From Patescibacteria group bacterium (GTDB lineage Bacteria; Patescibacteriota; Dojkabacteria; GCA-002793355), in the NCBI GenBank assembly GCA_016860985.1, contig BOKM01000001.1, positions 463,462-527,461 on the forward strand: DNA of 64,000 nucleotides, read 5' to 3'. Shown in pieces: positions 16,690 to 52,749 of this stretch (the first letter of the stretch is position 1; each line of letters begins with the position of its first letter). The position numbers and the translations under genes were made by a program. The notes under the pieces were generated by a model. The model made no database searches. It worked only from the letters and a program-made list of their open reading frames with translations, and was not told the DNA's origin.

Positions 16690-16715
16690 AGAGAATTATA
16701 CTATTTCTCAATTGT

Positions 16716-16994
16716 TTACGAATCTTCGAGTTCTTGCTTGGCTGCTTCCCAATCCATGTTTGGAGTGACTGTGATTTGCAGACTCGTTCCATCGGCATTC
16801 AGTTGCCTTACATCAGTGACAACTTTACAAATTCTGTGTGCAAACTGACAACCCACACATCCCTGATCAGCAAGCACTTTATCTATTGCTGCTGCTTCAT
16901 CGGGAAGAAAGGGTGGTTCTCCTATTCCGACTCGATGAGTATTTTCTTCATTCTCACACGGCATTTTTTCTAAAATTTCCCATTCAGTAGCCAT
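16716..16994 (-). CDS. small hypothetical protein with a C-x32-C-x2-C-x6-C motif
   Basis: 92-aa acidic ORF wedged between uvrA and uvrC on the same strand. Cys at positions 13, 46, 49 and 56 could bind Zn or an Fe-S cluster. Confidence 0.4.
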   Translation of the reverse strand: MATEWEILEKMPCENEENTHRVGIGEPPFLPDEAAAIDKVLADQGCVGCQFAHRICKVVTDVRQLNADGTSLQITVTPNMDWEAAKQELEDS

Positions 16995-16997
16995 GTT

Positions 16998-19900
16998 TTA
17001 CTCCGCAATATCTAACTCTTTAAGCATCTTACCCGTCCAACTCCTTGGATTTCGTCTAATGTCACCTATTGTGCCTGTCGCTACGATTTCTCCACCACCA
17101 GTTCCACCTTCGGGACCTAAATCGATGAGATAGTCAGCTTCCGCGATAAAGTCGAGGTTATGTTCAATTACAAAAACACTATTCCCTGTCGCAACTAAGG
17201 TTTTTAATACTGCTACCAGTTTCTCAATATCTGCAAAATGCAGACCAGTAGTTGGTTCATCAAGGATGTAGATTGTTTTACCTGTCGAACGCCTTCCAAG
17301 TTCTGCTGATAACTTCACTCTTTGTGCCTCTCCACCCGACAACATTGGGGCTGGCTCTCCAAGCTTCAAATAGCCAAGCCCTACTTGCTGAAGCATTTCG
17401 AATTTTTCTCGAATCATCGAGATTTCTGAAAAGAAAGCAGCAGCTTCATCTACCGACATATCCAACACATCTGCAATATTCTTTCCTTTGTACAACACTT
17501 CTAGAACCTCAGACACATATCGCTTACCGTGACAAACATCACAGTCAATATACACATCGGGCATAAACTGCATTTCGATCTTTATCTTACCCTCTCCTTT
17601 ACAGGCTTCACAACGACCACCTTTCAGGTTGAAACTAAAGCGACTTGCGGTGTAACCTCGCACTTTGGAATCCTTTGTTTGAGCAAAAAGTTCTCGAATA
17701 TCGTCGAAAACCTTTGTGTATGTTGCAGGATTACTTCTTGGTGTTCTACCAATTGGCGACTGATCAATGTAAAGGAGCTTGTCAATAACATCCGATACGT
17801 ATAGGTTTCTGTATTCTGTGTCGGGGCTATCTGTTCTCAGACCAAGAGTCTTTTTGATAGCAGGCAACAAGGTTTCCACCACAAGGGAGCTCTTTCCTGA
17901 ACCTGAAACACCAGTTATTGCAACAAATTTTCCGAGCGGAAACTTAACCGTTACATCTTTTAGATTGTGTGTTTTTGCCCCAGAAAGCTCTAAATACCGG
18001 TCAGCTACGCGCATTCGGGCATGTGACGCAAGAGCATCGTTTAATTTTTTGTTCTTACCAAGCCCTAACTTCACGAGTTTTTCGACTTCTTTTGCAATTG
18101 TTTTCTTACCAGCTAAGTACGGGCCAGTTACAGATTCGGGGTTGTCCATAATCTCTTTTGGCGTACCCATAGCAACGATTTTTCCTCCACGATCTCCTGC
18201 ACCCTTACCAAAATCAAGTACAAGATCTGCATTCATCATGGTATCTCTGTCGTGCTCAACAACGATCACAGTATTTCCCAAATCACGAAGATGCTTTAAT
18301 GTCGCGATTAATCGATGTTGATCTCGTGCATGCAGCCCAATCGAAGGTTCATCTAGTACGTAAATTACCCCCGAAAGGCCTGTTCCAATCTGACTCGCAA
18401 GGCGAATTCGCTGTGCTTCTCCACCAGAAAGCGTAGTTGCAGTTCTACTCACGGTTAAGTATTCAAGCCCCACGTCTAATAGAAATTGCGAACGAAGGAG
18501 GATTTCTCGAATTACTGGTTGTGCAATTGTCTGAGCTTTTGAATCAAATTCTTTAATAAATCCCTTGGTCTCATCTGTAAACTCTTTGATGGTTAAATCG
18601 CAAAGCTGGGAGATATTTAGATTATTAATGGTTACCGCAAGCACAATATCTTTAAGCCTTGTTCCTTTACAAGTTGGGCACGTAACCGTACTCATAAACT
18701 TCTCAATTTCGGTTCGAATAAAATCTGAATTTGTTTCTTTATACCTGCGCTCTAAGTTCGGAATTATCCCCTCGTATTTGGCATGAAGCGAGCGTTCTGT
18801 TCCGTCTTGGCTCGAAAAGTACGTTACTTTGTACTTTTGATCTCCCGTTCCGTAAAGAATCAGGTGTAATTTACCCTCAGTAAGCATACTCACTGGCGTA
18901 TGAATCGAAATAGTGTGTGCATCACAGACTAGTTCAAGCAACCTTCTAAAGTAAGAATCTCTCTCAAGCATTTTTGCGTACGGCATGATGCCACCTGCAA
19001 GTATCGAACGCTTTCCGTCGATAATTCCCTCTGTTGATATCTTCTTTATAACGCCAAGTCCATCACATTCAGGGCAGGCACCGTGTGGGGAATTAAAGGA
19101 AAAATCTCTAGGTTCAAGATCAGGAACAGAAATACCGCATTTTTTACAACTTTTGGTAACGCTATAATCGTGGGAAAGTACTGAGGTTGGACGAGCAGGT
19201 ATTCCCGGTTGTGGATCTCTTATTTCTAAAATTCGAACAAAGGTTGGTTGAATTTTAAGTGCGGCCTCAACTGATTGAAATATTCTTGAGCGCATTTCTT
19301 TTAGCGCTTCTTCTGAATCAAAGAGCGTTTTGCTCACACTTAAGGTGTCGACTACTACTTCTATTTCGTGTTGCTTGTACTTGTCGAGCTGTGGCAACAT
19401 TAATTTCAAGTCAATATATTCACCATCAACTCGAACAACATTCCACCCCTGTTTTCGCAAGTTCATAAATACCTGCTCATATTCACCTTTTCTTCCAGAA
19501 ATTGGAACTGCGGTAATCATAAAGCGGAACCCAAATTTTTGAGTATTTTTATCGTTTTCGTATTCGCGTTTTATCTTCTGCAATAAACCATCTACTACCT
19601 GGTCAATTGTTTGGGAGGTAAGTACCGCCCCACATTGTGGACAATGCGCAACACCGACTCTCGCGTACAACAATCGTAGGTAATCATAGATCTCGGTGAT
19701 TGTACCAACAGTCGAACGAGGATTATGTGATACCGTTTTCTGGTCAATAGCTATAGAGGGTGACAATCCTTCAATTTTATCGACATCTGGCTTACGTAGT
19801 TCACCCAAGAATTGCCTTGCATATGCAGATAAGCTCTCCACATATTTTCGCTGGCCTTCGGCATAAATGGTATCCATTGCAAGTGAGCTCTTGCCAGACC

Positions 19901-20000
19901 CCGACAAGCCAGTAAAAACAATCAACTTGTTTTTTGGGATATCGACGTCAATATTCTTGAGATTGTTCTCGCGCGCACCGCGAATCGAGAGAAAGTCCAT
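16998..20000 (-). CDS. uvrA: excinuclease ABC subunit A
   Basis: Two ABC ATPase modules ('GLSGSGKSSLAMDTIYAEGQRKYVESLSAYARQFLG' and 'GVSGSGKSSLV'), zinc-finger Cys pairs and a length of 1000 aa. Confidence 0.95.
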   Translation of the reverse strand: MDFLSIRGARENNLKNIDVDIPKNKLIVFTGLSGSGKSSLAMDTIYAEGQRKYVESLSAYARQFLGELRKPDVDKIEGLSPSIAIDQKTVSHNPRSTVGTITEIYDYLRLLYARVGVAHCPQCGAVLTSQTIDQVVDGLLQKIKREYENDKNTQKFGFRFMITAVPISGRKGEYEQVFMNLRKQGWNVVRVDGEYIDLKLMLPQLDKYKQHEIEVVVDTLSVSKTLFDSEEALKEMRSRIFQSVEAALKIQPTFVRILEIRDPQPGIPARPTSVLSHDYSVTKSCKKCGISVPDLEPRDFSFNSPHGACPECDGLGVIKKISTEGIIDGKRSILAGGIMPYAKMLERDSYFRRLLELVCDAHTISIHTPVSMLTEGKLHLILYGTGDQKYKVTYFSSQDGTERSLHAKYEGIIPNLERRYKETNSDFIRTEIEKFMSTVTCPTCKGTRLKDIVLAVTINNLNISQLCDLTIKEFTDETKGFIKEFDSKAQTIAQPVIREILLRSQFLLDVGLEYLTVSRTATTLSGGEAQRIRLASQIGTGLSGVIYVLDEPSIGLHARDQHRLIATLKHLRDLGNTVIVVEHDRDTMMNADLVLDFGKGAGDRGGKIVAMGTPKEIMDNPESVTGPYLAGKKTIAKEVEKLVKLGLGKNKKLNDALASHARMRVADRYLELSGAKTHNLKDVTVKFPLGKFVAITGVSGSGKSSLVVETLLPAIKKTLGLRTDSPDTEYRNLYVSDVIDKLLYIDQSPIGRTPRSNPATYTKVFDDIRELFAQTKDSKVRGYTASRFSFNLKGGRCEACKGEGKIKIEMQFMPDVYIDCDVCHGKRYVSEVLEVLYKGKNIADVLDMSVDEAAAFFSEISMIREKFEMLQQVGLGYLKLGEPAPMLSGGEAQRVKLSAELGRRSTGKTIYILDEPTTGLHFADIEKLVAVLKTLVATGNSVFVIEHNLDFIAEADYLIDLGPEGGTGGGEIVATGTIGDIRRNPRSWTGKMLKELDIAE

Positions 20001-20045: not shown

Positions 20046-20675
20046 TTATTGGACTCCGGCCTTCTTTAGCTTTGTAATCACAAAATATGTTAATGGTGTT
20101 GCCACTACTTCATATACTACTTTTACGACCCATTGAGTAAGAACCATCGTTACGATTTGTGCCGATGCTAATAGTCCTCCAAATGCGATCCCCAGAAATA
20201 AGATTGTATCTACACCTTCACCGAGCACCGTTGAGGAGATAGTTCTCAACCACAAAAACCTGCCCTTGGTCAATTCCTTGATTTTGTGCATGCTCCAAGC
20301 GTTTAAAAGAGAGCCTCCCAAATAGCCGGAAAATGAAGCAACGAGGATTCTCGGTGCTACACCTAAAATAGCATCAAAGCTGAGCTGTAAATCCCAAAAA
20401 GGAGCAGCAGGCAAGGCTTGGGCAGCAGCGATGGCAAGCACCACAATAAAGTTTGCAACAAAACCAAGTAGAATTGCGAATTTTGCTTTCTGAAATCCAA
20501 ATATCTCCGTCATTACATCTCCAATGATGTAACTTAATGGGAAAACTACTATACCAGCAGGAAGAAAAACGCCACCAAGTCCCACAATTTTTACAGCAAT
20601 TATATTGGCAGCAATCAGACAGGCAATAAATAAAGAGGTCAACCCAACAAAATAACCTGAATACATAATTTGCAA
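20046..20675 (-). CDS. yhhQ: queuosine-precursor (preQ0/preQ1) transporter, YhhQ/DUF165 (VUT) family
   Basis: ~209 aa with 6 TM helices and the YhhQ-like pattern 'IAANIIAVKIV...FPLSYIIGDVMTEIFG...FVANFIV'. TTG start. Divergent from the TGT-like operon. Confidence 0.75.
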   Translation of the reverse strand: MQIMYSGYFVGLTSLFIACLIAANIIAVKIVGLGGVFLPAGIVVFPLSYIIGDVMTEIFGFQKAKFAILLGFVANFIVVLAIAAAQALPAAPFWDLQLSFDAILGVAPRILVASFSGYLGGSLLNAWSMHKIKELTKGRFLWLRTISSTVLGEGVDTILFLGIAFGGLLASAQIVTMVLTQWVVKVVYEVVATPLTYFVITKLKKAGVQ

Positions 20676-20728: not shown

Positions 20729-20757
20729 TTGACTATGGGACCGCACTTCTTTAAAAT
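20729..20757 (+). promoter_or_regulatory. sigma70-like promoter (TTGACT-17 nt-TAAAAT) ending 5 nt before the ATG at 20763 (leaderless)
   Basis: TTGACT at 20729-20734, 17-nt spacer, TAAAAT at 20752-20757, ATG at 20763. No Shine-Dalgarno sequence. Confidence 0.5.
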
Positions 20758-20762
20758 AACGC

Positions 20763-21545
20763 ATGCGCCTTGCGATTATTGCACCAAATGCATATCTGCA
20801 GGATTTTTCAGCTTTTCATAACAACTCATACCATCTTGTTCTTGCACATCGATTCAACTCCGAGCCCGAATACCGTAGTTTTTACATTGAGCAAAGAAAG
20901 AAGACTCACAGTTTTATAATTCTTGATAACGGAGCTTGCGAACTCGGAGAGTCGATTAACAATGGCACACTACTAGAAACTGCCAGTGTCCTTCGTCCTG
21001 ACGTACTTGTTCTTCCCGACGTCTTGCATCAAAGTCAAGCAACAATTGCCAGAACAGAGAAATTCATTGAGTCCTATAAACACCAGAACAAAATAAAGTG
21101 CAAATTGATGGCAGTTGTACAGGGCAAAACAAGAAAGGAGTGGCTCTCAACATTATCTTCCTTTACCTCTAATCCATATATCGATATGATTGGGATTTCG
21201 AGTACAAACGCCGTATACCCGAAGACAAAAAACTACTATACCAGAATCAAAACACTTAGGTATTTGCATCAAAGACAACTTATAGGGAAGAAAAAAATTC
21301 ATATGCTCGGGTTAGATGACTCTGGACACTTCGAATTACGTCATTTCTCAAAATATTCCTTCATCGAAGGAGCAGATTCTAGCGCTCCAGTAGTTCATGG
21401 AGCAAAAGGGATAAAAATTTACAAGAACAAGCGTTACGAAAAGATTCGAACGTATCTACCAAGCGATGCAATCCTCACGAAGGAGCAGGTATTAGCAGTA
21501 AAAGCTAATCTGCAAGTATTTTTTGACATGGCTTCACATGAATAG
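20763..21545 (+). CDS. TGT-like (tRNA/DNA-guanine transglycosylase-like, DpdA-like) minimal TIM-barrel protein, putative
   Basis: Four collinear matches to TGT motifs with TGT-like spacing: 'FIILDNGACE' (cf. ILTDSGGFQ, catalytic Asp), 'LMAVVQGK' (cf. FGIIQGS), 'IHMLGLDD' (cf. LMGVGKPDD) and 'GADSSAPV' (cf. FDCVMPTR). 260 aa, with no CxCxxC...H zinc subdomain. Confidence 0.45.
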   Translation: MRLAIIAPNAYLQDFSAFHNNSYHLVLAHRFNSEPEYRSFYIEQRKKTHSFIILDNGACELGESINNGTLLETASVLRPDVLVLPDVLHQSQATIARTEKFIESYKHQNKIKCKLMAVVQGKTRKEWLSTLSSFTSNPYIDMIGISSTNAVYPKTKNYYTRIKTLRYLHQRQLIGKKKIHMLGLDDSGHFELRHFSKYSFIEGADSSAPVVHGAKGIKIYKNKRYEKIRTYLPSDAILTKEQVLAVKANLQVFFDMASHE

Positions 21546-23292
21546 AAAAATATTTGTATCGGGCGAAGGTGCTCGAGGAGCAGGAAAAACCTCTACGTTA
21601 AATGTTCTACTGCAAGAATCTACGACTCCCACTGCTGTTAACAGGGTAGCCCCAAACATACCTACAGAGCACCTTCTTCTGATTGACACTCATAAAGCGA
21701 CAAGCCCGTTTCACAAGAGAGCGCTCGAAATACATAAACAGTGGGAAGAAGCCGTCAAAACCCCAGGTGAAGGTGCAGAGCGATTATCATGGAAAAAGTT
21801 TGAGCTCGGAATACTACAGCTACGGTATGAATCCGACAGCTATCACGACGCAACTAGCAAAGCGGAGCAAATTTTTCTCGATAGAGATATTGATACAGCT
21901 GTCGTATACTCTGCAGCAGAGATTATTTTATCCAATCCTCACAAATACGATTCGGTACGTTCGCATATTGCGCTACTACACAATCTATGGCAGAAAGTAT
22001 ATTCAGTATGCCAGACAAACGACTGGGACGTGAGCACTTTTCCACACCTTGATACCGAAGATGATGTCTTATCATTAGTTGATTTTTTAAAACAACAACC
22101 CTTAAGGGATATACCCACTAATACCTTTTACTTCTTTACAAAAGATAAGACTGAATCACTAAAAAGGAGCCACACTTTACGTATAGACACTGCACTCGAA
22201 TACAATCTCACCGTAGTACAGCAAGCAACACAAGATATTATCCAACCATTGTACCTCTATTCCTTTCTCATCCGAAAACAATTATTCCCTGAGGCGCAAG
22301 TTCATTATCTCTCTTCAGATGCGCACAACATCAAAGAGCTCGCGAATTTGGTAAAACTACATGTTAATACGACGACGCTTGAGGTTCCAGGCGCAGACCA
22401 TATCCCCGTTAAGCTACGAATACCTTTTAACAAAGACCACTCCCTACCCTCATCCATTGAGACGCTTAGCCAAGTAATATTCGAAAGCACTGTTGGATCA
22501 ACCTTCCCAAGCAAACGAGAAGTACACATTAATGGAGAATCAAATTGTGTTTACAACAATAAGGCACTGTACGAATACGCATCATTACTAGGACTTGGCC
22601 ACATTGAATTCGTCCAAATTCAACGAGAGACATTCTCTGAAACTTGTCCTGTCCACTGGGCGTGTATTGAGTGGCTTACTCCCCAAAGAGATACTGCACG
22701 AATAATTGATCTGACACCTTTTAGAATTAAGCCCTACATTTCCCAACCTTGTAAAGTTACACACAATGGGGATACATACCAACTGACCTCGCTCACACAA
22801 CAGCCTATTGAATTTACTCAAGTAAAGAAAGAAACGTCATTAATTCCAGAAAGAGCCATGGAATTCGCCTATAACGTTGAATATACTTTCCAGGAAGAAT
22901 CGTTACAAGCATTAACACGTGAGGGATATGAATTGTTAGGCCAATCAAACAACGAATCGCAGAATATATTTTTAACTATTAGGTTAGGAAGATTGTTGCA
23001 GAAACAGGAACGCATCCAAGAGGCAGTCGAATTGCTTGAGCGAGCAGTGACCACTTTCCCGCAAAATCTTATACTTGCCAGGGAAGTTGCAAAGTATGTC
23101 ATTGATGGGTACATTAAATTCGTACCACCGTATTTTTATACTTACCTCAGTAACGCAAACCAGATTCTTGAACGAACTACCCAAACAATGCGAGAACATG
23201 ATATTGATGAAACTGAAATCAATGCGTATTATGAGTATAGGAAATTTATTCCACATGCACTTAAGTTAATCACCGAAGAACATGAAAGTTGA
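21538..23292 (+). CDS. P-loop nucleoside/nucleotide-kinase-like domain fused to a ~400-aa uncharacterised Cys-containing, partly TPR-like C-terminal domain
   Basis: N-terminus 'KIFVSGEGARGAGKTST' is a dNK/thymidylate-kinase-type Walker A, followed by 'LDRDIDTAVVY'. The C-terminal region contains 'CVYNN', 'CPVHWACIEW', 'PCKVTHNGDTYQ' and a helical repeat (LERAVTTFPQNLILAREVAKYV). The ATG at 21538 overlaps the upstream stop by 8 nt; the track start is a TTG at 21523. Confidence 0.5.
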   Translation: MNRKIFVSGEGARGAGKTSTLNVLLQESTTPTAVNRVAPNIPTEHLLLIDTHKATSPFHKRALEIHKQWEEAVKTPGEGAERLSWKKFELGILQLRYESDSYHDATSKAEQIFLDRDIDTAVVYSAAEIILSNPHKYDSVRSHIALLHNLWQKVYSVCQTNDWDVSTFPHLDTEDDVLSLVDFLKQQPLRDIPTNTFYFFTKDKTESLKRSHTLRIDTALEYNLTVVQQATQDIIQPLYLYSFLIRKQLFPEAQVHYLSSDAHNIKELANLVKLHVNTTTLEVPGADHIPVKLRIPFNKDHSLPSSIETLSQVIFESTVGSTFPSKREVHINGESNCVYNNKALYEYASLLGLGHIEFVQIQRETFSETCPVHWACIEWLTPQRDTARIIDLTPFRIKPYISQPCKVTHNGDTYQLTSLTQQPIEFTQVKKETSLIPERAMEFAYNVEYTFQEESLQALTREGYELLGQSNNESQNIFLTIRLGRLLQKQERIQEAVELLERAVTTFPQNLILAREVAKYVIDGYIKFVPPYFYTYLSNANQILERTTQTMREHDIDETEINAYYEYRKFIPHALKLITEEHES

Positions 23293-23794
23293 TCAAGCAA
23301 AACTTGGAGTAGGTACAATCTGTTACCTACACTCAAACGACTCTTACTTACTAGGCGAAAAAAAGTACGGTGGCGCACAAGGTAAAGTTAATGGGTTTGG
23401 TGGCAAGATCGAAACGACAGACCAATCAATCTATGATGCAGTTAAGAGGGAATTTCGTGAAGAAACATCAATCCAACTCAACGCACCCAAGTATTGTGGC
23501 ATTATCGAAATTTTTAAGAACGAGACGAGAAAAGCAATTTTTTATCTGTTTAAAGCAGATGACTTTATCGGCCAACCTCAAGAATCTGAGGAGATGAAAG
23601 TGTACTGGGTGAAAAATACTGAGGTCCCTTTCGAAAAAATGTGGGCATCAGATGCATTATGGCTTCCACTCTTTCTTAAAAATGACAATATACGTGTAAA
23701 ACTTTATTTTCAGGAAGGCAATGACAAAGCAGATCGAATGGAAGTAACCTTTAATGCGACTCTAGATGAAACATATCACGAAAACTTTATCTAA
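23282..23794 (+). CDS. Nudix hydrolase
   Basis: Nudix box 'GGKIETTDQSIYDAVKREFREETSI' (GX5EX7REUXEEXGU-like). 170 aa. The start overlaps the upstream stop (ATGAAAGTTGA). Confidence 0.75.
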   Translation: MKVDQAKLGVGTICYLHSNDSYLLGEKKYGGAQGKVNGFGGKIETTDQSIYDAVKREFREETSIQLNAPKYCGIIEIFKNETRKAIFYLFKADDFIGQPQESEEMKVYWVKNTEVPFEKMWASDALWLPLFLKNDNIRVKLYFQEGNDKADRMEVTFNATLDETYHENFI

Positions 23795-24668
23795 GGTTCC
23801 ATCCTATTTGATAGAAACTATTGAGAAGGAATCTATTCCCTACCTCGAGCAAGTTCGTGTAAAGGAATATTCTAAACGTCTTCCACCACTTGAAGGGCAA
23901 AGAGTTGCAGTAATCCCTTGGAGTGGTGGGTTAGACTCAACAACCAGTCTTATCATGGCGATAGAAGCAGGCATCTCAATCAGGACCATATTTCTGAATT
24001 ACGGACAACCTTACATAAAGAAAGAATTGCTCGCAACCAATAAGTTAGAAAAACTGATACGCGCAAAATATCCGGAAGCAGATTGGACCGAGCATTACAT
24101 AGTCGATGTGAGCTTCATAGACCAGCTTGTGAAATCGAAATTCAACGGAGAATGGGGACATATTTTCCCAATGCGTAACTTTCTCATCCTTGAAGAATCA
24201 GCCGCGATAGCACAACCAAATAGATACACAGAAGTTTGGTTTAGCAGTGTGCAAGGAGAAATGCCTTATTCAGGAGGAGACAAGAGTGTGGTATTTCTCA
24301 CCTATATGAAAGAAATTTTTGGAAAACGGAATATTAATTTAACCACGCCGCTCGTCGGCCTCACAAAGGCAGATATGGTTCAATGGGCTATTGCCCAACT
24401 AGATAGGTTCCGTATTATTCGACATACGATATCCTGCTTCAACGGAGAAGGAGATTCCCACTGTGGTGAATGTCAAGCTTGTTTCAATCGTGCAGTAGCA
24501 TTTTTCGCTGCAAATCAACTCCCACTTAGCGGAGTCCCTTACCACAAAAACGCATTGCAAAATTTTGGAGAAAATTATATTCGTAAACTTGCTAAAGAAA
24601 GTTATTACTCCCCAACAAGAAGAAGCCAGTTACAGCAGTTCATAAACTTTATAAGCCAACAAACATGA
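23766..24668 (+). CDS. QueC-family PP-loop ATPase (7-cyano-7-deazaguanine synthase homologue) with a ~50-aa N-terminal extension
   Basis: Collinear with B. subtilis QueC: PP-loop 'VAVIPWSGGLDSTT' (SGGxDS), 'NYGQ' (cf. DYGQRH), 'PMRNFLIL' (cf. PGRNLLFL) and a C-terminal zinc site 'SCFNGEGDSHCGECQAC' (cf. CYNG...GCGECPAC). Confidence 0.8.
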   Translation: MKHITKTLSKVPSYLIETIEKESIPYLEQVRVKEYSKRLPPLEGQRVAVIPWSGGLDSTTSLIMAIEAGISIRTIFLNYGQPYIKKELLATNKLEKLIRAKYPEADWTEHYIVDVSFIDQLVKSKFNGEWGHIFPMRNFLILEESAAIAQPNRYTEVWFSSVQGEMPYSGGDKSVVFLTYMKEIFGKRNINLTTPLVGLTKADMVQWAIAQLDRFRIIRHTISCFNGEGDSHCGECQACFNRAVAFFAANQLPLSGVPYHKNALQNFGENYIRKLAKESYYSPTRRSQLQQFINFISQQT

Positions 24669-25534
24669 TTAGCTTTGTTATACCCTCTTATCAGCGAGCA
24701 GACGGTGCAATCTTTATGATACTTAATTTGTTGCACCAAACAGTTTTCACAAAATATCCAACAGAACTAATACTGTCTATTGATGAAACTGATACCCAAA
24801 AAGAATTGTATGCAAACTACATCATTCAAGCAAAAAAAATTGCGCAAGAAATCGTACCTGCATGTAACATATCACTCCTGGTTAATCAGACAAAAGGCTT
24901 AGTCGCAGCAAAGAATAACGCTGTGCGAGCTTCTAAATACGAGTTCATCATGATGCTCGATGATGATCTTGCTGCAGTAGATAATTACGTTGAAGCCTTG
25001 TTAGCCGACATGAAGGCTGCCCCTTCAGTAGGTGCTATTTCAGGATTTATAGTTTCATACCTTTCTGCTATATCTCACACTCAACCCTCCGATTTCATTG
25101 AAGAGGTACCTAAGGAATCGCATCTACAGACACTAAAACTGGACTCCAACAATGGTGCTTGGAGAACATTTTTCGGCAAGAAAGAGCAGGTCATGGATTG
25201 GAGTAGAATCAATAAGAATATTCCTTCTACGGTTCGCTATACCATGGACTATTTTGTCAATTCGTATCTCTTTAGAAGAAGCGCATACAACAAAATAGGT
25301 GGATACTCAAATGATTTAAATTCTAAGACATCTGCCCACGAGGAGGTCGATTTCACTTATAGAATGAGAAAAGCTGGCTACCAACTTCTTTTTAATCCAT
25401 TTGTCCAGATGTGGCATATTACCGTCGGCCACGGAGGTATCTACAAAGGAGCAGATTACAATGAGAGTAAAGAAATCTTAGAAAAAGAGTATAAAGAAAG
25501 TATACCTCTATTTGTTCAGTCGATTTCCAGGTAG
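24665..25534 (+). CDS. family 2 glycosyltransferase
   Basis: 'ISFVIPSYQRADG' N-terminal GT-A start and the 'FIMMLDDDL' DxD motif. ATGA overlap with the QueC-like stop. Confidence 0.7.
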   Translation: MISFVIPSYQRADGAIFMILNLLHQTVFTKYPTELILSIDETDTQKELYANYIIQAKKIAQEIVPACNISLLVNQTKGLVAAKNNAVRASKYEFIMMLDDDLAAVDNYVEALLADMKAAPSVGAISGFIVSYLSAISHTQPSDFIEEVPKESHLQTLKLDSNNGAWRTFFGKKEQVMDWSRINKNIPSTVRYTMDYFVNSYLFRRSAYNKIGGYSNDLNSKTSAHEEVDFTYRMRKAGYQLLFNPFVQMWHITVGHGGIYKGADYNESKEILEKEYKESIPLFVQSISR

Positions 25535-25577: not shown

Positions 25578-26372
25578 ATGAAATCCCCGTATGTTCAGGG
25601 TTTGAAACAGGGGTTCGCCGAACTTTCAGTCTACTCTCTCGATTTCCTGTTTGGGTTATTCCAAGCAGTTGCGCTTGTCGGCTTTGAAATACTCCTGTGG
25701 ACTTTTGTCCTCCCTGCTGATAACCAAACTGCCCTATTTGAACGCACCTCTTATTTTTTGCTAGCCAATGGCATTGCCTTGGTAATCGGAGGTGCCCGAT
25801 ATCGCTTTGCCAGAGATTTATCACTCGTCATCAAAGAGGGAACGTTGTCGCACTACCTTCTTAAACCGATTAATCCTGTACTTTACATCTATTCAGAACA
25901 TGTTGGAGGAAAAGGACCAGATTTTATGATCGGATTAATTTTTATAATCATGGGAACTTTGTGGATACCGACCTTTACGCTCGTTAAGCTACCATTGTTG
26001 TTGATAACGCTGGCTGCAGCTCTCATAAATACAATCTCACTAAACGTTATCGCAGGGGCTGTAGCCTTTTGGACAACCGAGGCAAACGGTATTAAGAATG
26101 CCTTTGCGCAAACAACGCGATTATTTAACGGACAGCAAGTTCCCATCAATCTTTTCATGGAAATGATCAGTCCTTTTTGGGCGCAATTCTTGTATATTCT
26201 CCCCTTCGCAAGTGTTGCATATACGCCAACGCACATAGTTATTGCCAAAACATTCGACGCAATAGATTTTAGATTTATCATCGCTTCGATTATCTGGGCG
26301 TTCATTCTCCCGTTACTCGCAACACTAATTTGGAATAGAGGACTCAAACGATATGAGGGGACTGGTCTCTAA
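25578..26372 (+). CDS. ABC-2-type transporter permease (6 TM)
   Basis: 264-aa polytopic membrane protein. First of two permeases preceding an ABC ATPase in the same operon. Confidence 0.55.
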   Translation: MKSPYVQGLKQGFAELSVYSLDFLFGLFQAVALVGFEILLWTFVLPADNQTALFERTSYFLLANGIALVIGGARYRFARDLSLVIKEGTLSHYLLKPINPVLYIYSEHVGGKGPDFMIGLIFIIMGTLWIPTFTLVKLPLLLITLAAALINTISLNVIAGAVAFWTTEANGIKNAFAQTTRLFNGQQVPINLFMEMISPFWAQFLYILPFASVAYTPTHIVIAKTFDAIDFRFIIASIIWAFILPLLATLIWNRGLKRYEGTGL

Positions 26373-27171
26373 CCTACGATTCTACTTTCGAGTACTTGCA
26401 AAAAAGATTTTGTTTGCCTGGCAGATAGAAACGGCTTACGCAGGGAACACGATAGGTGAGCTTTTTTCAACCATTTTTTACAACATTACCTTTATTATTT
26501 TTATCGATATTGTACTGCGAAAATATAAGCTGCTCGCTGGCTACTCTTTCAACGATATGCTGGTACTTGTTTTTGTGACACAGATTGTATTCTATACAGG
26601 ACTAACTATTACTTACGATAGCATGTCAAAATTCGTACAATCTGTAAGAGATGGTATTTTTGATACGTACCTTCTCAAACCGATGTCTGTTTTCTTTCAA
26701 GTGATGACCTTAAGCATCAGGCCGTTTTCTGGGCTGTTCTTTTCTGTTCCACCATTGCTAATTTATGTAGTGCTCATCATTAAAAATCAAGCATTTCATC
26801 CCGAACCTTTTGGGCTAACGGTTGGCTTACTTGGAATGTTGGTTGGGATTCTCTACCTTCATTTTTATCGATTTACGTTTGCGATGTTCGTGTTTAAAAC
26901 AAAACAGGTAAAAAACCTACTCAAAACACTTGACCTACTTGGGGATGCTGGATCTTTTCCCTACGAGGCTTATGTTGAACCGTTTAGAACAATTGTCTTT
27001 TTTATTGCGCCATTTCTTGCTGCGGCTGCCATTCCTGCAACCTACTTCTTAAACAAAACGACTTCTCTTTGGCCATTTGTTATTCAGATTGGACTCATGC
27101 TATTTTTTATGACTACTGCACTACTTTTATGGAGAAAAGGATTAAAAGAATATGAATCAATTTCATCTTAA
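26353..27171 (+). CDS. ABC-2-type transporter permease (6 TM)
   Basis: 272-aa polytopic membrane protein. The start overlaps the previous permease stop. Confidence 0.55.
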   Translation: MRGLVSNLRFYFRVLAKKILFAWQIETAYAGNTIGELFSTIFYNITFIIFIDIVLRKYKLLAGYSFNDMLVLVFVTQIVFYTGLTITYDSMSKFVQSVRDGIFDTYLLKPMSVFFQVMTLSIRPFSGLFFSVPPLLIYVVLIIKNQAFHPEPFGLTVGLLGMLVGILYLHFYRFTFAMFVFKTKQVKNLLKTLDLLGDAGSFPYEAYVEPFRTIVFFIAPFLAAAAIPATYFLNKTTSLWPFVIQIGLMLFFMTTALLLWRKGLKEYESISS

Positions 27172-27186
27172 TTATTCACCCCTATT

Positions 27187-28170
27187 ATGAAACCAGTTAT
27201 CACTACACAAAACCTCAAAAAGGATTTTCTTGTTCCTGCACGACAGTCATTTTGGCAAAGACTGTTTACTCCAAAATACGAAGAAGTCACGGCTGTCGAC
27301 AACATTTCTTTTCACATTATGGAAGGCGAATCTGTTGCACTTCTTGGACCGAATGGCGCGGGCAAAACAACAACCATGAAAATGATGACCGGCATACTTT
27401 ATCCAACAGCCGGAAGTTGCAATGTGCTTGGATACAACCCTAATAAACGCAACCCTGCGATGCTTAAAAACATTGGCTTTGTAATGGGCAATAAAAGCAC
27501 GCTTTCTATGGACCTTTCCCCTATGCAAAACTACGAGCTTAACAGAGTTATTTACGATATTGATGCCACAAGATTTTATAACACGATAGACGAACTTGGG
27601 GAACTTCTTGAGGTAAAAGATCATTTATATAAACAAACACGAAAACTCTCGCTTGGACAAAGAATGAAAGCGGAAATGATAAACTCGATACTACACAGAC
27701 CGAAGATTCTCTTTCTAGACGAACCGACCATTGGACTAGACATCTCCTCTCAGAACAATATTCGCACATTTCTTAAAAAAGTTAACAAAGAGCTAGGAAC
27801 GACGATTATCCTTACGAGCCACAATATGGAAGATATTTCACAAGTTTCTGAAAGAGTACTTATAATCAATCAAGGCAAACTCGTTTACGACAACTCTCTC
27901 GAAATGCTGAAGCGGACTTTTTCAACAAAAAAATACATCAAGGTTATTGTTACAACAAAAGGAAACTCCCGCTCCTTTGAGAAAAAGTTTAAGCCATTTG
28001 GTGACATTGTCAGCTCTGGTAAAGATTTCGTGACGCTCGAAATTGATAAAAACAGACAGGCACCCATTATTGCAGCAATACTCAACATGGAGCACGTTCA
28101 TGATATCGATATTGAGGGGGTACCACTCACAAAAATCATAGAATCGATTTTCAAGAAAAAACTTGATTAG
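27187..28170 (+). CDS. ABC transporter ATP-binding protein with a C-terminal accessory (DUF4162-like) domain
   Basis: Walker A 'GPNGAGKTTTMKMM', signature 'LSLGQRMK', Walker B 'ILFLDEPTIGLD' and H-loop 'TSHNMED'. The C-terminal ~100-aa extension is typical of ABC-2 exporter ATPases. Confidence 0.9.
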   Translation: MKPVITTQNLKKDFLVPARQSFWQRLFTPKYEEVTAVDNISFHIMEGESVALLGPNGAGKTTTMKMMTGILYPTAGSCNVLGYNPNKRNPAMLKNIGFVMGNKSTLSMDLSPMQNYELNRVIYDIDATRFYNTIDELGELLEVKDHLYKQTRKLSLGQRMKAEMINSILHRPKILFLDEPTIGLDISSQNNIRTFLKKVNKELGTTIILTSHNMEDISQVSERVLIINQGKLVYDNSLEMLKRTFSTKKYIKVIVTTKGNSRSFEKKFKPFGDIVSSGKDFVTLEIDKNRQAPIIAAILNMEHVHDIDIEGVPLTKIIESIFKKKLD

Positions 28171-28991: not shown

Positions 28992-29003
28992 AATGAAGAG
29001 TAG

Positions 29004-29053
29004 CGCGAATTTTCGAATCTGTAAAATGAAATGCCTCTGGCGAAAATTCGCGC
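29004..29053. promoter_or_regulatory. perfect 13-bp inverted repeat GCGCGAATTTTCG-(24 nt)-CGAAAATTCGCGC immediately upstream of the tyrS -10 element
   Basis: Arms at 29004-29016 and 29041-29053. An extended -10 TGTATAAT follows at 29060-29067, with the tyrS ATG at 29073. Confidence 0.35.
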
Positions 29054-29072
29054 AAAACATGTATAATCTACC

Positions 29073-41541: not shown

Positions 41542-41546
41542 CGATT

Positions 41547-42359: not shown

Positions 42360-42377
42360 CCGCTATAATACGTACAT

Positions 42378-52673: not shown

Positions 52674-52749
52674 ACAGGATTGTACCACTAGCAGCCGAAA
52701 TTGCCGTAGTATTTTACTTACACACTGCCACGTTATATAATTACTCAGT

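What the first reader, a model, noticed from the sequence alone, without database searches (positions are those of the whole stretch)
23766..24668. Orphan, N-terminally extended QueC homologue with no QueD/QueE/FolE/QueF partners nearby
The PP-loop (SGGLDSTT), the YGQ motif and the C-terminal C-x-x-C zinc site are all canonical QueC. This enzyme is normally useless without its substrate CDG, which QueD/QueE produce, and those genes are absent here. The adjacent transporter is of the preQ0/preQ1-importing family. That makes a conventional CDG-to-preQ0 role odd. One possibility is that the protein performs a QueC-like ATP-dependent amidation or nitrile chemistry on a salvaged substrate, as Gat-QueC/QueC-like enzymes do in dADG/G+ pathways. 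Alternatively, the rest of the pathway is encoded elsewhere in the genome. The extra ~50 N-terminal residues are not found in standard QueC.
Basis: partly seen in the sequence, partly recalled or inferred. Interest (0 to 1): 0.6.

Follow-up and report, generated by a model that had tools for sequence, protein, structure and literature searches.

The report
QueC-like enzyme in deazaguanine cassette
The "orphan" QueC gene is really one of five overlapping genes, found only in ultra-small Patescibacteria, that pair a divergent QueC-type enzyme with a phage-type guanine-swapping enzyme, a nucleotide kinase, a nucleotide pyrophosphatase and a sugar transferase, which points to an undescribed way of making a modified, possibly sugar-decorated, 7-deazaguanine from scavenged precursors.

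Summary
The ORF (23766-24668, 300 aa) is real. It has the PP-loop, YGQ, a four-Cys zinc site and a conserved 47-residue N-terminal extension. No folE/queD/queE/queF/tgt lies in the 64-kb window.

It is not housekeeping QueC. It scores 69 bits against a 150-bit QueC equivalog cutoff, and the YPDC substrate motif is replaced by an invariant [YF]SGGDKS. It belongs to an uncharacterised metagenome-only "GGDKS" clade whose viral and Amesbacteria members sit beside queD/queE/folE.

It is not an orphan either. It is gene 4 of a five-gene operon with overlapping junctions (20763-25534):
- a DpdA3-type TGT-fold transglycosylase
- a thymidylate-kinase-like / Cys-His-Asp / TPR fusion protein
- an MTH1-like Nudix hydrolase
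- the QueC-like enzyme
- a GT2 glycosyltransferase

The cassette recurs in at least five flanking contexts in Patescibacteria MAGs. A YhhQ importer gene lies beside it in two independent contexts, once next to a serine recombinase.

Best reading: a salvage-fed 7-deazaguanine DNA or nucleotide hypermodification module. The product and the target are unproven. NCBI annotates the gene as plain QueC. I rate it a new variant of a known kind.

The parts
20046..20675 (-). YhhQ/Vut_1-family 7-deazaguanine precursor transporter, divergently transcribed from the cassette
   Evidence: Pfam Vut_1 at 168 bits and TIGR00697 'queuosine precursor transporter' at 119 bits against a cutoff of 51. It is adjacent to the cassette in the window and L002, and independently in L007. 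It is absent beside the cassette in L004, L006 and L008.
20729..20757 (+). Promoter-like site (TTGACT-17-TAAAAT) just upstream of the first cassette gene
   Evidence: Matches 10 of 12 consensus positions. The number of such sites in the region is not above chance, so this is weak evidence.
20763..21545 (+). DpdA3-type TGT-fold (TIM barrel) guanine transglycosylase homolog, 260 aa, without a zinc subdomain
   Evidence: No Pfam or NCBIfam hit. AF2 pLDDT is 95.4. Foldseek top PDB hits are bacterial TGT (E 4e-7) and DpdA 7ui4. The top BFVD hit is a 259-aa Cellulophaga phage phiST protein with TM-score 0.84. tblastn hits Campylobacter CP220-group phages and Flavobacterium immuto_2-6A 'DNA guanine transglycosylase', which are the DpdA3 subfamily of PMC10516641. 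hhalign to phiSM DpdA aligns ILDNGA with IIDSGAF and GADS with SVDS. D55, D86 and D205 are invariant.
21523..23292 (+). Three-part fusion protein (589 aa from TTG 21523, or 584 aa from ATG 21538): an N-terminal thymidylate/deoxynucleoside-kinase-like P-loop domain (about aa 1-290), an unassigned domain with invariant Cys342/His378/Asp396 (about aa 320-400), and a TPR-like helical tail (about aa 440-589)
   Evidence: P-loop FEGERGTGKTS and a DRDxDT motif. Pfam Thymidylate_kin hits 4 of 8 members (best E 9e-5) and AAA_28 hits 6 of 8. A profile search against PDB hits thymidylate kinases (best E 1e-3). Foldseek on the low-confidence model gives deoxyadenosine kinase and TMKs as top hits. The Cys-His-Asp domain has no Pfam or PDB match. 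The AF2 model is poor, with pLDDT 57. In L003 only the kinase part is present, as a separate 249-aa protein.
23282..23794 (+). MTH1/NUDT1-like Nudix hydrolase, a candidate purine (d)NTP to (d)NMP pyrophosphohydrolase
   Evidence: Pfam NUDIX at 38 bits. phmmer against PDB hits vertebrate MTH1/NUDT1 at E 1e-23 to 1e-18, with bacterial MutT-family proteins only at 1e-6. NCBI names it 8-oxo-dGTP diphosphatase.
23766..24668 (+). The finding itself: a QueC-family PP-loop, zinc-binding enzyme of the 'GGDKS' clade, 300 aa
   Evidence: Pfam QueC at 85 bits. TIGR00364 at 69 bits against a cutoff of 150. GGDKS-clade HMM at 208 bits versus canonical QueC HMM at 92 bits. Only 5 clusters among 1.84 billion representatives score above 290 bits.
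23766..23906 (+). Conserved, basic N-terminal extension (aa 1-47) with the invariant EQxRVKE[YH] motif
   Evidence: pI 9.45. The motif occurs only in the core family.
23922..23939 (+). PP-loop SGGLDS (aa 53-58)
   Evidence: Invariant in all family members and in canonical QueCs.
24267..24287 (+). [YF]SGGDKS loop (aa 168-174) that replaces the canonical YPDC substrate-binding motif
   Evidence: Alignment A5. 129 of the 145 nearest representatives have DKS and only 2 have YPDC.
24435..24482 (+). Zinc site C224-x8-C233-x2-C236-x2-C239, with Phe225 in place of the essential canonical Tyr
   Evidence: The essential role of the canonical Tyr is from PMC13329287.
24507..24665 (+). Basic C-terminal extension (aa 248-300) shared with phage GGDKS-clade relatives
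   Evidence: The family HMM aligns to position 301 in L016 and 293 in L014. See also alignment A5. pI is 9.87.
24665..25534 (+). GT-A fold family-2 glycosyltransferase with an LDDD motif, 289 aa
   Evidence: Pfam Glycos_transf_2 hits 6 of 6 family members. TAGT (TET-associated glycosyltransferase) hits 5 of 6, and the window protein scores 29.8 bits against a cutoff of 27.5. phrog_842 beta-glucosyl-HMC-alpha-glucosyltransferase hits at E 3e-7. Its start overlaps the QueC-like stop by 4 nt.

Best explanation
The gene encodes a divergent QueC-family enzyme: a PP-loop ATP pyrophosphatase with a four-Cys zinc site. It does not serve tRNA-queuosine biosynthesis. It is one step of a self-contained, horizontally mobile five-gene 7-deazaguanine modification cassette found in Patescibacteria.

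Proposed mechanism (all steps inferred unless marked as shown):
1. A 7-deazaguanine precursor is taken up rather than made. No folE/queD/queE is nearby, and a YhhQ importer gene accompanies the cassette in two contexts.
2. The DpdA3-type TGT-fold enzyme swaps guanine for the deazaguanine on its substrate through the conserved Asp general-acid and Asp nucleophile pair. The substrate is either DNA or a (deoxy)guanine nucleotide.
3. The QueC-like enzyme adenylates the 7-carboxylate of a CDG-type substrate and resolves the adenylate with ammonia or another amine, giving a 7-amido, N-substituted amido or 7-cyano group. Its remodelled [YF]SGGDKS loop and basic N- and C-terminal extensions adapt it to a substrate or partner different from the free CDG used by housekeeping QueC.
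4. The MTH1-like Nudix hydrolase and the thymidylate-kinase-like domain interconvert the triphosphate, monophosphate and diphosphate forms of the purine nucleotide involved.
5. The GT2 enzyme adds a sugar.

Shown by the data: family placement, operon structure, partner folds, conserved catalytic residues, and association of both key families with queD/queE/folE elsewhere.

Inferred only: the substrate, the order of steps, the target (DNA versus nucleotide), and the final product.
For: 1. The protein is not housekeeping QueC. It scores 69 bits on TIGR00364 against a cutoff of 150. It scores 208 bits on the GGDKS-clade HMM versus 92 bits on the canonical HMM. YPDC is deleted, H39 is Tyr and Y189 is Phe, while SGGxDS, Y35, Q37, R99/N100, K165 and the four zinc-site Cys are kept (signature from PMC13329287).

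2. The clade still works on the QueE product. GGDKS-type genes sit directly beside queD/queE/folE in viral contigs L014-L017 and L021-L022, and in the Amesbacteria locus L010.

3. It is a conserved operon. All four gene junctions overlap by 4-29 nt. The same five genes occur in the same order in L002, L004/L005/L009, L006, L007 and L008, at 43-57% QueC-like identity and in different flanks. L003 carries a variant.

4. The partner is a transglycosylase. ORF260 has a TGT/DpdA fold and is sequence-related to phage DpdA3. It has three invariant Asp residues, as in TGT and DpdA (PMC10164549).

5. DpdA3-like genes are linked to queD/queE/folE in most of the 47 viral loci and in 24 of 32 metagenome loci of at least 8 kb. 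They are also linked in Bacillus and Weizmannia phages.

6. There is a nucleotide-handling parallel. In Campylobacter phage CP220, whose DNA is 100% dADG, DpdA3 is flanked by an HD-phosphohydrolase/P-loop fusion and a thymidylate kinase. Here it is flanked by a TMK-like kinase and an MTH1-like Nudix. In addition, 27 of the 145 nearest GGDKS-clade relatives are fused to a HAD-phosphatase-like domain.

7. There is a salvage link. YhhQ lies beside the cassette in the window/L002 context and, independently, in L007 next to a serine recombinase.

8. The GT2 shows weak affinity to DNA-base glycosyltransferase families, TAGT and phrog_842.
Against: - There is no biochemical or analytical evidence of any kind.
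- DpdA3 activity has never been reconstituted, even for phages (PMC10516641).
- The source of a carboxylated (CDG-type) substrate is unexplained. From my own knowledge, characterised YhhQ proteins import preQ0, preQ1 or queuine, none of which needs a QueC.
- YhhQ is next to the cassette in only two independent contexts.
- folE/queD/queE elsewhere in the ~1.05-Mb genome cannot be excluded, because only 64 kb was available.
- No restriction or effector partner that would give a DNA modification an obvious purpose is visible.
- The GT2 scores better on generic GT2 models than on TAGT, so it could be a cell-envelope enzyme.
- The kinase assignment rests on three weak lines of evidence (E about 1e-3 to 1e-4).
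- The Cys-His-Asp domain is unassigned.
- The MTH1-like Nudix could simply be a sanitising enzyme that was co-opted by chance.
Confidence: 0.5

Rival explanations
1. Housekeeping QueC. The protein simply converts CDG to preQ0 for tRNA queuosine. The genes folE, queD, queE, queF and tgt lie elsewhere in the genome, and the neighbouring genes are unrelated.
For: The Pfam QueC hit is above its cutoff. The PP-loop, Y35, Q37, R99, N100, K165 and the zinc site are kept. NCBI and JGI name it 7-cyano-7-deazaguanine synthase. Clade relatives replace canonical queC next to queD/queE/folE, so preQ0 synthase chemistry itself is not excluded. The rest of the genome could not be searched.
Against: It scores 69 bits against the 150-bit equivalog cutoff. 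The YPDC motif, whose Tyr is essential, is deleted, and the essential Y189 is Phe (PMC13329287). The paper's authors predict loss of preQ0 synthesis when this signature is altered. The five-gene order is conserved at 43-57% identity in different flanks, with overlapping junctions. The family is extremely rare, with 5 clusters among 1.84 billion representatives, which does not fit a housekeeping gene. From my own knowledge, Patescibacteria generally lack such biosynthetic pathways.
Confidence: 0.1
2. tRNA modification by salvage. The DpdA3-like enzyme is this lineage's tRNA-guanine transglycosylase. The QueC-like enzyme and GT2 tailor a queuosine-like, possibly glycosylated, base in tRNA.
For: The TGT fold and catalytic Asp residues are present. 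A YhhQ importer gene is adjacent. No canonical tgt is in the window. From my own knowledge, glycosylated queuosines made by GT-A and GT-B enzymes exist in vertebrate tRNA. TyrRS and AspRS genes lie in the same window.
Against: The sequence relatives of ORF260 are phage DpdA3 proteins linked to DNA polymerase genes and DNA modification, not to tRNA (PMC10516641). The zinc subdomain that TGTs use is absent. A dNTP pyrophosphatase homolog and a dNMP-kinase-like domain have no role in a tRNA pathway. No queA/queG/queH is nearby.
Confidence: 0.12
3. A small-molecule 7-deazapurine nucleoside or nucleotide, such as an antibiotic, a signal or a glycosylated nucleoside. It would be built by base exchange on a guanine nucleotide, followed by amide formation, phosphate trimming and glycosylation, and it would never enter a nucleic acid.
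For: QueC homologs such as RoyL ligate amines to CDG in roseomycin-type pathways, huimycin carries a glycosylated deazapurine, and tubercidin clusters include a PF00293 (Nudix-family) hydrolase (preprint 10.64898/2026.04.15.718813). The cassette has a kinase, a Nudix hydrolase and a GT. In the window an ABC-2 exporter follows the cassette. The L003 variant sits among sugar-aminotransferase, dehydratase and GT genes.
Against: The ABC-2 exporter is absent from the other cassette loci. Known deazapurine metabolite clusters use phosphoribosyltransferases and encode folE/queD/queE, and they lack TGT-family enzymes. A secondary-metabolite pathway would be unexpected in 1-Mb parasitic genomes. The L003 variant carries a DEDD (RNase_T) exonuclease, which hints at nucleic acid.
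Confidence: 0.12
4. Protein deazaguanylation. As with Cap9/Cap10 (type IV CBASS) or QatC, the QueC-like enzyme ligates CDG to a partner protein's N-terminus, the TGT-like protein binds or processes the conjugate, and the whole acts as a defence or signalling system.
For: A QueC-like plus TGT-like pairing is exactly what type IV CBASS has (preprint 10.1101/2025.04.06.647259). There are weak hits to Cap9 (PDB 9nto, E 5e-4), to QatC (27 bits) and to PADLOC QueC (58 bits). The fusion protein has a TPR tail of unknown role.
Against: No CD-NTase, effector, QatA, QatB or QatD is present, and no other PADLOC hit was found apart from a weak Nudix hit. QatC scores 27 bits against a cutoff of 280. No cassette protein has the conserved N-terminal Gly used as acceptor. 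ORF260 is closest to phage DpdA3, and Cap10 does not appear among its hits. The cassette is embedded among housekeeping genes rather than in a defence island.
Confidence: 0.06

Closest known systems
Canonical QueC (7-cyano-7-deazaguanine synthase; TIGR00364; Cluster 1 of PF06508 in Libby et al. 2026, PMC13329287)
   Same: Rossmann-type PP-loop SGGxDS. YGQ. The Arg-Asn of VPxRN. The conserved Lys (K165, here K201). The C-x8-C-x2-C-x2-C zinc site. About 25-31% identity to the solved QueCs 2pg3 and 3bl5.
   Different: 300 aa versus about 220 aa, with conserved basic N-terminal (47 aa) and C-terminal (about 50 aa) extensions. H39 is Tyr. YPDC is replaced by [YF]SGGDKS. The Tyr after the first zinc-site Cys is Phe. 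It scores below the equivalog cutoff. It is not linked to queD/queE but to a DpdA3-like, kinase, Nudix and GT2 set.
Phage 7-deazaguanine DNA-modification modules with DpdA3 (Cellulophaga phiST, Campylobacter CP220, Flavobacterium immuto_2-6A; Hutinet et al. 2023, PMC10516641)
   Same: A DpdA3-type minimal TGT-fold enzyme is co-encoded with QueC-family or CDG-pathway genes. In CP220 the flanking genes are a P-loop kinase and a phosphohydrolase.
   Different: It is found in cellular Patescibacteria chromosomes rather than in phages. There is no folE/queD/queE. The QueC is of the GGDKS type rather than canonical, and no viral DpdA3-like locus examined had that combination. It adds an MTH1-like Nudix, a Cys-His-Asp/TPR fusion and a GT2, none of which is seen in the 47 viral or 80 metagenome DpdA3-like loci.
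Bacterial Dpd system (DpdA/DpdB/DpdC with DpdD-K restriction; PMC10164549)
   Same: It is a cellular system with a TGT-fold transglycosylase that carries the same three active-site Asp residues and would install a 7-deazaguanine into DNA.
   Different: There is no DpdB ATPase, no DpdC and no restriction genes. The transglycosylase is of the DpdA3 type, with no large Ins8 insertion or zinc region. The cassette contains its own QueC-like enzyme, nucleotide enzymes and a glycosyltransferase.
Cap9/Cap10 of type IV CBASS and QatC of QatABCD (protein deazaguanylation)
   Same: A QueC-family enzyme is co-encoded with a TGT-family protein and presumably uses CDG-adenylate chemistry.
   Different: No CD-NTase or Qat partners are present. 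The size is different (Cap9 is about 185 aa, QatC about 400 aa). Cap9 keeps YxDC, and QatC has its own motifs. Profile scores are far below the cutoffs.
T4-type nucleotide-pool hypermodification logic (dCTPase gp56, dCMP hydroxymethylase gp42, dNMP kinase gp1, glucosyltransferases) and S-2L DatZ/MazZ/PurZ. This comparison rests on my own knowledge and on PMC8342488 as listed.
   Same: The same four functional classes occur together: a dNTP pyrophosphatase candidate, a base-altering enzyme, a dNMP-kinase-like domain and a glycosyltransferase.
   Different: It concerns guanine and 7-deazaguanine. The base-altering step would be a transglycosylation, which is unprecedented at the nucleotide level. 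It is in a cellular genome. It is entirely unproven.

Membership tests
Canonical QueC (TIGR00364 / PF06508 Cluster 1) | SGGxDS pyrophosphate loop | tested here: met
   SGGLDS at residues 53-58, invariant.
Canonical QueC (TIGR00364 / PF06508 Cluster 1) | C-x8-C-x2-C-x2-C zinc motif | tested here: met
   C224, C233, C236 and C239 are invariant.
Canonical QueC (TIGR00364 / PF06508 Cluster 1) | YxQxHxxE motif (Y35 essential) | tested here: inconclusive
   Y79 and Q81 are kept. The His is replaced by an invariant Tyr83, and the Glu is shifted by one position to E87.
Canonical QueC (TIGR00364 / PF06508 Cluster 1) | VPxRN motif (R99 essential) | tested here: met
   FP-x-R137-N138, with P135, R137 and N138 invariant.
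Canonical QueC (TIGR00364 / PF06508 Cluster 1) | YPDC substrate-binding motif (Y131 essential) | tested here: not met
   There is a four-residue deletion, and the motif is replaced by an invariant [YF]SGGDKS. Only 2 of the 145 nearest relatives have YPDC.
Canonical QueC (TIGR00364 / PF06508 Cluster 1) | Tyr after the first zinc-site Cys (Y189 essential) | tested here: not met
   Phe225 is invariant.
Canonical QueC (TIGR00364 / PF06508 Cluster 1) | Curated equivalog score | tested here: not met
   69.1 bits against a cutoff of 150.3 on TIGR00364, and 51 bits against 378 on NF008317.
Canonical QueC (TIGR00364 / PF06508 Cluster 1) | Genomic linkage to queD/queE | tested here: not met
   None is present in the 64-kb window or in any cassette flank.
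Canonical QueC (TIGR00364 / PF06508 Cluster 1) | CDG to preQ0 activity, or complementation of delta-queC | not testable with these tools
   This needs an enzyme assay or an E. coli delta-queC complementation test.
Gat-QueC (phage and archaeal dG+/G+ synthase) | N-terminal class-II glutamine amidotransferase domain fused to QueC | tested here: not met
   Only a 47-aa extension is present. phrog_10428 matches only the QueC half, at profile positions 247-461. There is no GATase Pfam hit.
Cap9 (type IV CBASS) | Minimal QueC of about 185 aa that keeps YxDC and is encoded next to a CD-NTase and Cap10 | tested here: not met
   The protein is 300 aa, YxDC is lost, and no CD-NTase is present. The PDB 9nto match covers only residues 48-97.
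QatC (QatABCD) | QatC profile score and QatA/QatB/QatD neighbours | tested here: not met
   NF041925 scores 27 bits against a cutoff of 280. PADLOC QatC scores 20 bits. No ATPase or TatD neighbours are present.
GGDKS-type QueC-like clade (defined in this work; not described in the literature searched) | [YF/x]-x-G-G-DKS loop, S-C-F at the first zinc-site Cys, and a C-terminal extension of about 50 aa | tested here: met
   208 bits on a clade HMM built without the core family. The motifs are shared.
DpdA3 subfamily of TGT/DpdA (applies to ORF260, the operon partner) | TGT-like TIM-barrel fold | tested here: met
   AF2 pLDDT 95. Foldseek hits TGT at E 4e-7 and DpdA 7ui4 at E 2e-5.
DpdA3 subfamily of TGT/DpdA (applies to ORF260, the operon partner) | Sequence relationship to phage DpdA3 (phiST, CP220, immuto_2-6A) | tested here: met
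   tblastn at 26-31% identity with E down to 5e-12. The family HMM hits CP220 gp056 at 2e-25. TM-score to the phiST protein is 0.84. That the phiST protein M4SLA5 is identical to CGPG_00065 was not verified directly.
DpdA3 subfamily of TGT/DpdA (applies to ORF260, the operon partner) | Three invariant active-site Asp residues (general acid/base, base recognition, nucleophile) | tested here: inconclusive
   D55, D86 and D205 are invariant and in the right order. hhalign places D55 and D205 on the DSG and DS Asp residues of phiSM DpdA (probability 64%). The equivalence of D86 rests on motif order only.
DpdA3 subfamily of TGT/DpdA (applies to ORF260, the operon partner) | Guanine/7-deazaguanine exchange in DNA | not testable with these tools
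   This has never been shown, even for phage DpdA3.
MTH1/NUDT1-type Nudix (applies to the upstream partner) | Sequence similarity across the Nudix fold, including the base-recognition region | tested here: met
   E 1e-23 to zebrafish NUDT1 over residues 21-142. The Trp and one of the two base-binding Asp residues are kept, in the segment MWASDALW.

The most novel reading that the evidence does not exclude
Patescibacteria carrying this cassette rewrite part of their guanine deoxynucleotide pool in the way T4 rewrites cytosine.
1. The MTH1-like Nudix converts dGTP to dGMP.
2. The DpdA3-type enzyme is not a post-replicative DNA enzyme. It is a mononucleotide transglycosylase that swaps the guanine of dGMP for a scavenged 7-deazaguanine.
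3. The GGDKS QueC-like enzyme amidates the 7-carboxyl group on the nucleotide. Its Gly-rich, Lys-containing loop and its extensions would bind the sugar-phosphate.
4. The TMK-like domain re-phosphorylates the product so that the polymerase can incorporate it.
5. The GT2 then glycosylates the base in DNA.

The result would be the first glycosylated 7-deazaguanine and the first such DNA in a cellular genome. It would also explain why DpdA3 phages reach 100% replacement of G.
Probability: 0.12. Interest if true: 0.9.

Novelty: new variant of a known kind. Interest (0 to 1): 0.68.

Why it matters
7-Deazaguanine modifications of DNA and tRNA are an active field that includes the Dpd systems, phage anti-restriction, and Cap9 and QatC protein deazaguanylation.

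This cassette would add three things:
- The first cellular home of the DpdA3 transglycosylase type, which so far is known only from phages and has never been reconstituted.
- A large QueC clade ("GGDKS") that is known only from metagenomes. It replaces the canonical substrate-binding motif and is missing from the recent family survey.
- A gene set (pyrophosphatase, kinase, glycosyltransferase) hinting at nucleotide-level synthesis and glycosylation of a deazaguanine. Neither has been reported.

It also matters for annotation. Public records call the gene plain "7-cyano-7-deazaguanine synthase" and call two of its partners hypothetical. That could lead metabolic reconstructions of Patescibacteria to infer a queuosine pathway that is probably not there.

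The cassette is small enough, at five genes and 4.8 kb, to be tested directly by heterologous expression and nucleoside mass spectrometry.

Tried and rejected
- **Gat-QueC identity.** Rejected. There is no amidotransferase domain.
- **Cellulophaga phiSM and Burkholderia BcepGomr QueCs as close relatives.** Rejected. Both are canonical, with YPDC and TCY. The apparent coverage of the N-terminal extension in the phiSM tblastn hit came from an in-frame run-on into the upstream gene.
- **A cultured-phage example of the GGDKS clade.** None was found among 50,697 records using two clade representatives.
- **ORF589 structure.** The fold search was usable only for the kinase part.
- **The Cys-His-Asp domain.** Profile searches against PDB and Pfam gave nothing meaningful. 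A similarity to NAT or transglutaminase-type folds rests only on motif spacing and secondary-structure order. I do not claim it.
- **A sequence-level link of ORF260 to PDB.** None was found, even with a profile. The TGT relationship rests on the predicted structure and on hhalign to a phage DpdA.
- **The 260- and 274-aa genes upstream of phage GGDKS QueC-likes (L014, L016).** They are not detectably DpdA3-like.
- **Metagenome scan for more cassette copies.** Nothing was found with the QueC-like family. With the DpdA3-like family, only viral-type relatives at 35% identity or less were found.
- **Prophage origin of the window locus.** Rejected. The flanks are housekeeping genes, GC content is uniform and no integrase is present. 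A serine recombinase does sit beside the L007 copy.
- **The ABC-2 exporter as part of the system.** Rejected. It is absent from the other loci.
- **Literature.** I found no paper linking Patescibacteria with queuosine or 7-deazaguanine pathways, and none describing this cassette.

Full report
**1. What is at the coordinates**

Positions 23766-24668(+) hold a 300-aa ORF. It matches Pfam QueC at 85 bits against a gathering score of 22.

- SGGLDSTT at residues 53-60.
- YGQ at residues 79-81.
- A four-cysteine site C224-x8-C233-x2-C236-x2-C239.

The roughly 47-residue N-terminal extension is genuine:
- It is present in all 17 full-length homologs found among 5.8 billion proteins.
- It is as conserved as the catalytic core (majority fraction 0.57-0.67 versus 0.63).
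- It carries invariant E28, Q29, R31, K33 and E34.
- No alternative start codon lies between codon 15 and codon 64, which is past the PP-loop.

There is also a conserved basic C-terminal extension of about 50 residues.

The window contains no PTPS/QueD, radical-SAM QueE, GTP cyclohydrolase I, QueF or canonical TGT. I checked this with Pfam scans of every ORF of at least 150 aa and with a six-frame scan using QueD/QueE/FolE HMMs that I built from annotated phage genes. A YhhQ/Vut_1 transporter is at 20046-20675(-) and scores 119 bits on TIGR00697 against a cutoff of 51.

The host is a Patescibacteria (CPR) MAG. The window is ordinary chromosome: Mur ligases, Ddl, UvrABC, several aminoacyl-tRNA synthetases, MurJ and FtsK.

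**2. It is not housekeeping QueC**

The curated QueC equivalog models are failed by a wide margin. TIGR00364 gives 69 bits against 150, and NF008317 gives 51 bits against 378.

Libby et al. 2026 (PMC13329287) defined the canonical catalytic signature by mutagenesis. I aligned the family with the two solved QueCs and with canonical phage QueCs.

Retained:
- SGGxDS.
- Y35 and Q37.
- R99 and N100 (here R137 and N138).
- K165 (here K201).
- The zinc cysteines.

Changed:
- The His of YxQxH is an invariant Tyr.
- The YPDC motif, whose Tyr is essential, is deleted and replaced by an invariant [YF]SGGDKS loop.
- The essential Tyr after the first zinc-site Cys is an invariant Phe.

In the Cap9 structure, the Tyr and Asp of the YxDC motif and the Arg of the RN motif hold the deazaguanine base. 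Here the Arg is kept, and an aromatic residue and an Asp persist inside the new loop. I therefore infer that a deazaguanine-type substrate is still bound, but in a remodelled pocket.

**3. It belongs to an undescribed clade**

An exhaustive profile search of 1.84 billion representatives found only five clusters scoring above 290 bits. These are the core family with the N-terminal extension. The next hits drop to 153 bits or less.

Of the 145 nearest representatives, 129 carry the DKS motif and only 2 carry YPDC. Twenty-seven have an N-terminal HAD-phosphatase-like domain.

I built an HMM of this "GGDKS" clade without the core family. It scores the window protein at 208 bits, against 92 bits for a canonical QueC HMM.

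Members of the clade sit directly next to queD, queE and folE on phage-like contigs (L014-L017, L021, L022) and in a Candidatus Amesbacteria contig (L010). The clade therefore acts downstream of CDG synthesis.

No cultured phage among 50,697 records carries a close member. The clade does not correspond to any of the ten clusters discussed in the 2026 family survey.

**4. It is not an orphan**

The gene is the fourth of five genes with overlapping junctions. The overlaps are 8, 11, 29 and 4 nt, spanning 20763-25534.

The same five genes, in the same order, occur in the following loci:

| Locus | Identity to the window QueC-like | Source |
|---|---|---|
| L002 | 57% | ENA metagenome assembly, same flanks as the window |
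| L004/L005/L009 | 43% | Saccharimonadia MAG |
| L006 | 47% | JGI metagenome contig |
| L007 | 47% | MAG labelled Gammaproteobacteria (probably a misbinned CPR contig) |
| L008 | 47% | Daviesbacteria MAG |

The flanks differ among them. The neighbours are DnaJ/HSP70 in L004, Lgt and a serine recombinase in L007, and a Na/H exchanger in L008.

L003 holds a variant. It has the transglycosylase, a stand-alone kinase domain and the QueC-like gene, followed by an APH-type kinase, another Nudix, a DEDD exonuclease and a GT1, all among sugar-modifying genes.

**5. The partners**

*Gene 1 (260 aa).* It has no Pfam or NCBIfam hit. It models confidently as a TIM barrel with pLDDT 95.
- Its best structural matches are bacterial tRNA-guanine transglycosylases and the DNA preQ0 insertase DpdA.
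- Among viral models, its best match is a 259-aa Cellulophaga phage phiST protein with TM-score 0.84.
- At the sequence level it matches Campylobacter phage CP220-group proteins and the "DNA guanine transglycosylase" of Flavobacterium phage immuto_2-6A. These are the DpdA3 subfamily that Hutinet et al. 2023 associated with complete G replacement but could not reconstitute.
- It has three invariant Asp residues in the order expected for the TGT/DpdA general acid, base-recognition Asp and nucleophile (PMC10164549). hhalign places two of them on the corresponding DpdA motifs.
- Across 47 viral loci and 32 long metagenome loci, DpdA3-like genes are usually accompanied by queD/queE/folE. In Bacillus and Weizmannia phages they lie between the que genes and the DNA polymerase gene.

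*Gene 2 (584-589 aa).* It is a fusion of three parts.
- The first is a thymidylate/deoxynucleoside-kinase-like P-loop domain. Three weak but concordant lines support this.
- The second is a domain with an invariant Cys-His-Asp set that I could not assign.
- The third is a TPR-like tail.

*Gene 3.* It is an MTH1/NUDT1-like Nudix hydrolase. It matches the vertebrate enzymes at E 1e-23 and bacterial MutT-family proteins only at 1e-6.

*Gene 5.* It is a GT-A family-2 glycosyltransferase. It has a weak but recurrent affinity for the TET-associated and T-even HMC glucosyltransferase families.

None of the kinase fusion, the MTH1-like Nudix or this GT2 was found next to DpdA3-like genes in viruses or metagenomes. 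The combination is specific to these Patescibacteria.

**6. How it most likely works**

Both signature families, DpdA3-like and GGDKS QueC-like, are tied to 7-deazaguanine synthesis genes elsewhere. Here those synthesis genes are missing. A YhhQ-type importer gene travels with the cassette in two independent contexts, once beside a serine recombinase.

The most economical reading is a salvage-fed 7-deazaguanine modification module. In it, the QueC-like enzyme performs ATP-dependent activation of a 7-carboxyl group and forms an amide or nitrile. The DpdA3-like enzyme performs the base exchange. The GT2 adds a sugar.

The MTH1-like pyrophosphatase and the dNMP-kinase-like domain fit a purely post-replicative DNA pathway poorly. 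They mirror the HD-phosphohydrolase/P-loop and thymidylate-kinase genes that flank DpdA3 in CP220 and the HAD fusions in the QueC-like clade. This is why I raise the possibility of a nucleotide-level route analogous to T4 hydroxymethylcytosine synthesis. It is inference only.

What remains unexplained:
- Where a carboxylated substrate comes from. Characterised YhhQ proteins import preQ0 and preQ1, which do not need a QueC.
- What the Cys-His-Asp domain does.
- What the modification would be for, since no restriction partner is visible.

**7. Rivals**

| Rival | Weight | Main points |
|---|---|---|
| Housekeeping QueC with the pathway elsewhere | 0.10 | Cannot be fully excluded without the genome. 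It conflicts with the failed equivalog score, the altered essential residues, the rarity of the family and the conserved operon. |
| tRNA-directed salvage pathway | 0.12 | Fits the TGT fold and YhhQ. It does not fit the phage-DpdA3 kinship or the dNTP-handling enzymes. |
| Soluble deazapurine nucleoside product | 0.12 | Precedent exists in RoyL, huimycin and tubercidin. Those clusters encode their own CDG pathway and use phosphoribosyltransferases. |
| Protein deazaguanylation, as in Cap9/Cap10 or QatC | 0.06 | It shares the QueC-like plus TGT-like pairing. All other defining partners and the acceptor N-terminal Gly are missing. |

**8. Verdict**

The locus is a new variant of the known 7-deazaguanine modification systems:
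- A rare, mobile, Patescibacteria-specific five-gene cassette.
- A QueC-like enzyme that belongs to an uncharacterised clade.
- A product that is unknown.

Public annotation calls the gene plain QueC and two partners hypothetical, and this would mislead pathway reconstruction.

I score interest at 0.68. The system is compact and directly testable, and it bears on the open question of how DpdA3-type enzymes work. Every functional step beyond family and fold assignment remains inference.

Noticed in passing
window 38067-39866 (-): A class II AspRS-type synthetase (tRNA-synt_2 plus an OB anticodon domain) carries a C-terminal YbaK/ProX-type tRNA_edit domain. This is an unusual fusion.
   Followed up: no
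window 15358-20000, 31203-33257, 35850-37064, 40025-43025: The cassette is embedded among DNA-repair genes: UvrC, UvrA, UvrB, a RecD-like helicase, a second Nudix, an Exo_endo_phos nuclease and an HhH-GPD glycosylase. L006 also has UvrB, LexA and a RecD-like helicase near its cassette. This could be coincidence or a hint of a DNA-related role.
   Followed up: partly
window 25578-28170 (+): A three-gene ABC-2 exporter (two permeases plus an ATPase) lies between the cassette and tyrS in this genome only. It is absent at the same position in L002.
   Followed up: yes
L007 52-1647 (+): A large serine recombinase lies directly beside the yhhQ-plus-cassette unit, which suggests a six-gene mobile island. 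The contig is labelled as a Gammaproteobacteria MAG but looks like a misbinned CPR contig.
   Followed up: partly
L010 7838-10837 (+), Candidatus Amesbacteria contig MEXE01000031.1: folE-queD-queE is followed directly by a 419-aa GGDKS-type QueC-like gene with about 140 extra N-terminal residues. This is a complete CDG pathway with the non-canonical QueC type in another CPR lineage.
   Followed up: partly
P0056-P0176 (representatives): 27 of the 145 nearest GGDKS-clade QueC-like proteins are fused to an N-terminal HAD-phosphatase-like domain (DxDGT ... DD[KR]G). Many of the unfused ones share a VPE[KR]P motif in their N-terminal extension.
   Followed up: partly
L023-L069 (viral contigs): About 25 of the 47 viral DpdA3-like loci have queD/queE/folE genes within 8 kb but no queC of any type, as in phage phiST (dDG DNA). 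About 16 share a fixed layout of queD-queE-folE, then a gap of about 4 kb, then DpdA3-like.
   Followed up: no
L013 5814-8307 (Campylobacter phage CP220): DpdA3 (gp056) is flanked by an HD-phosphohydrolase/P-loop fusion (gp055) and a thymidylate kinase (gp057). This context seems hard to reconcile with a purely post-replicative insertion model.
   Followed up: partly
window 50853-52766 (-): An ATP-dependent, archaeal/eukaryal-type DNA ligase with N, M and C domains is present in this bacterial genome.
   Followed up: no
window 28179-29060 (-) and 29073-30425 (+): A 293-aa protein with a long Thr/Pro-rich (TPTPT) linker has no Pfam hit. Next to it is a 450-aa TyrRS, which looks longer than usual.
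   Followed up: no
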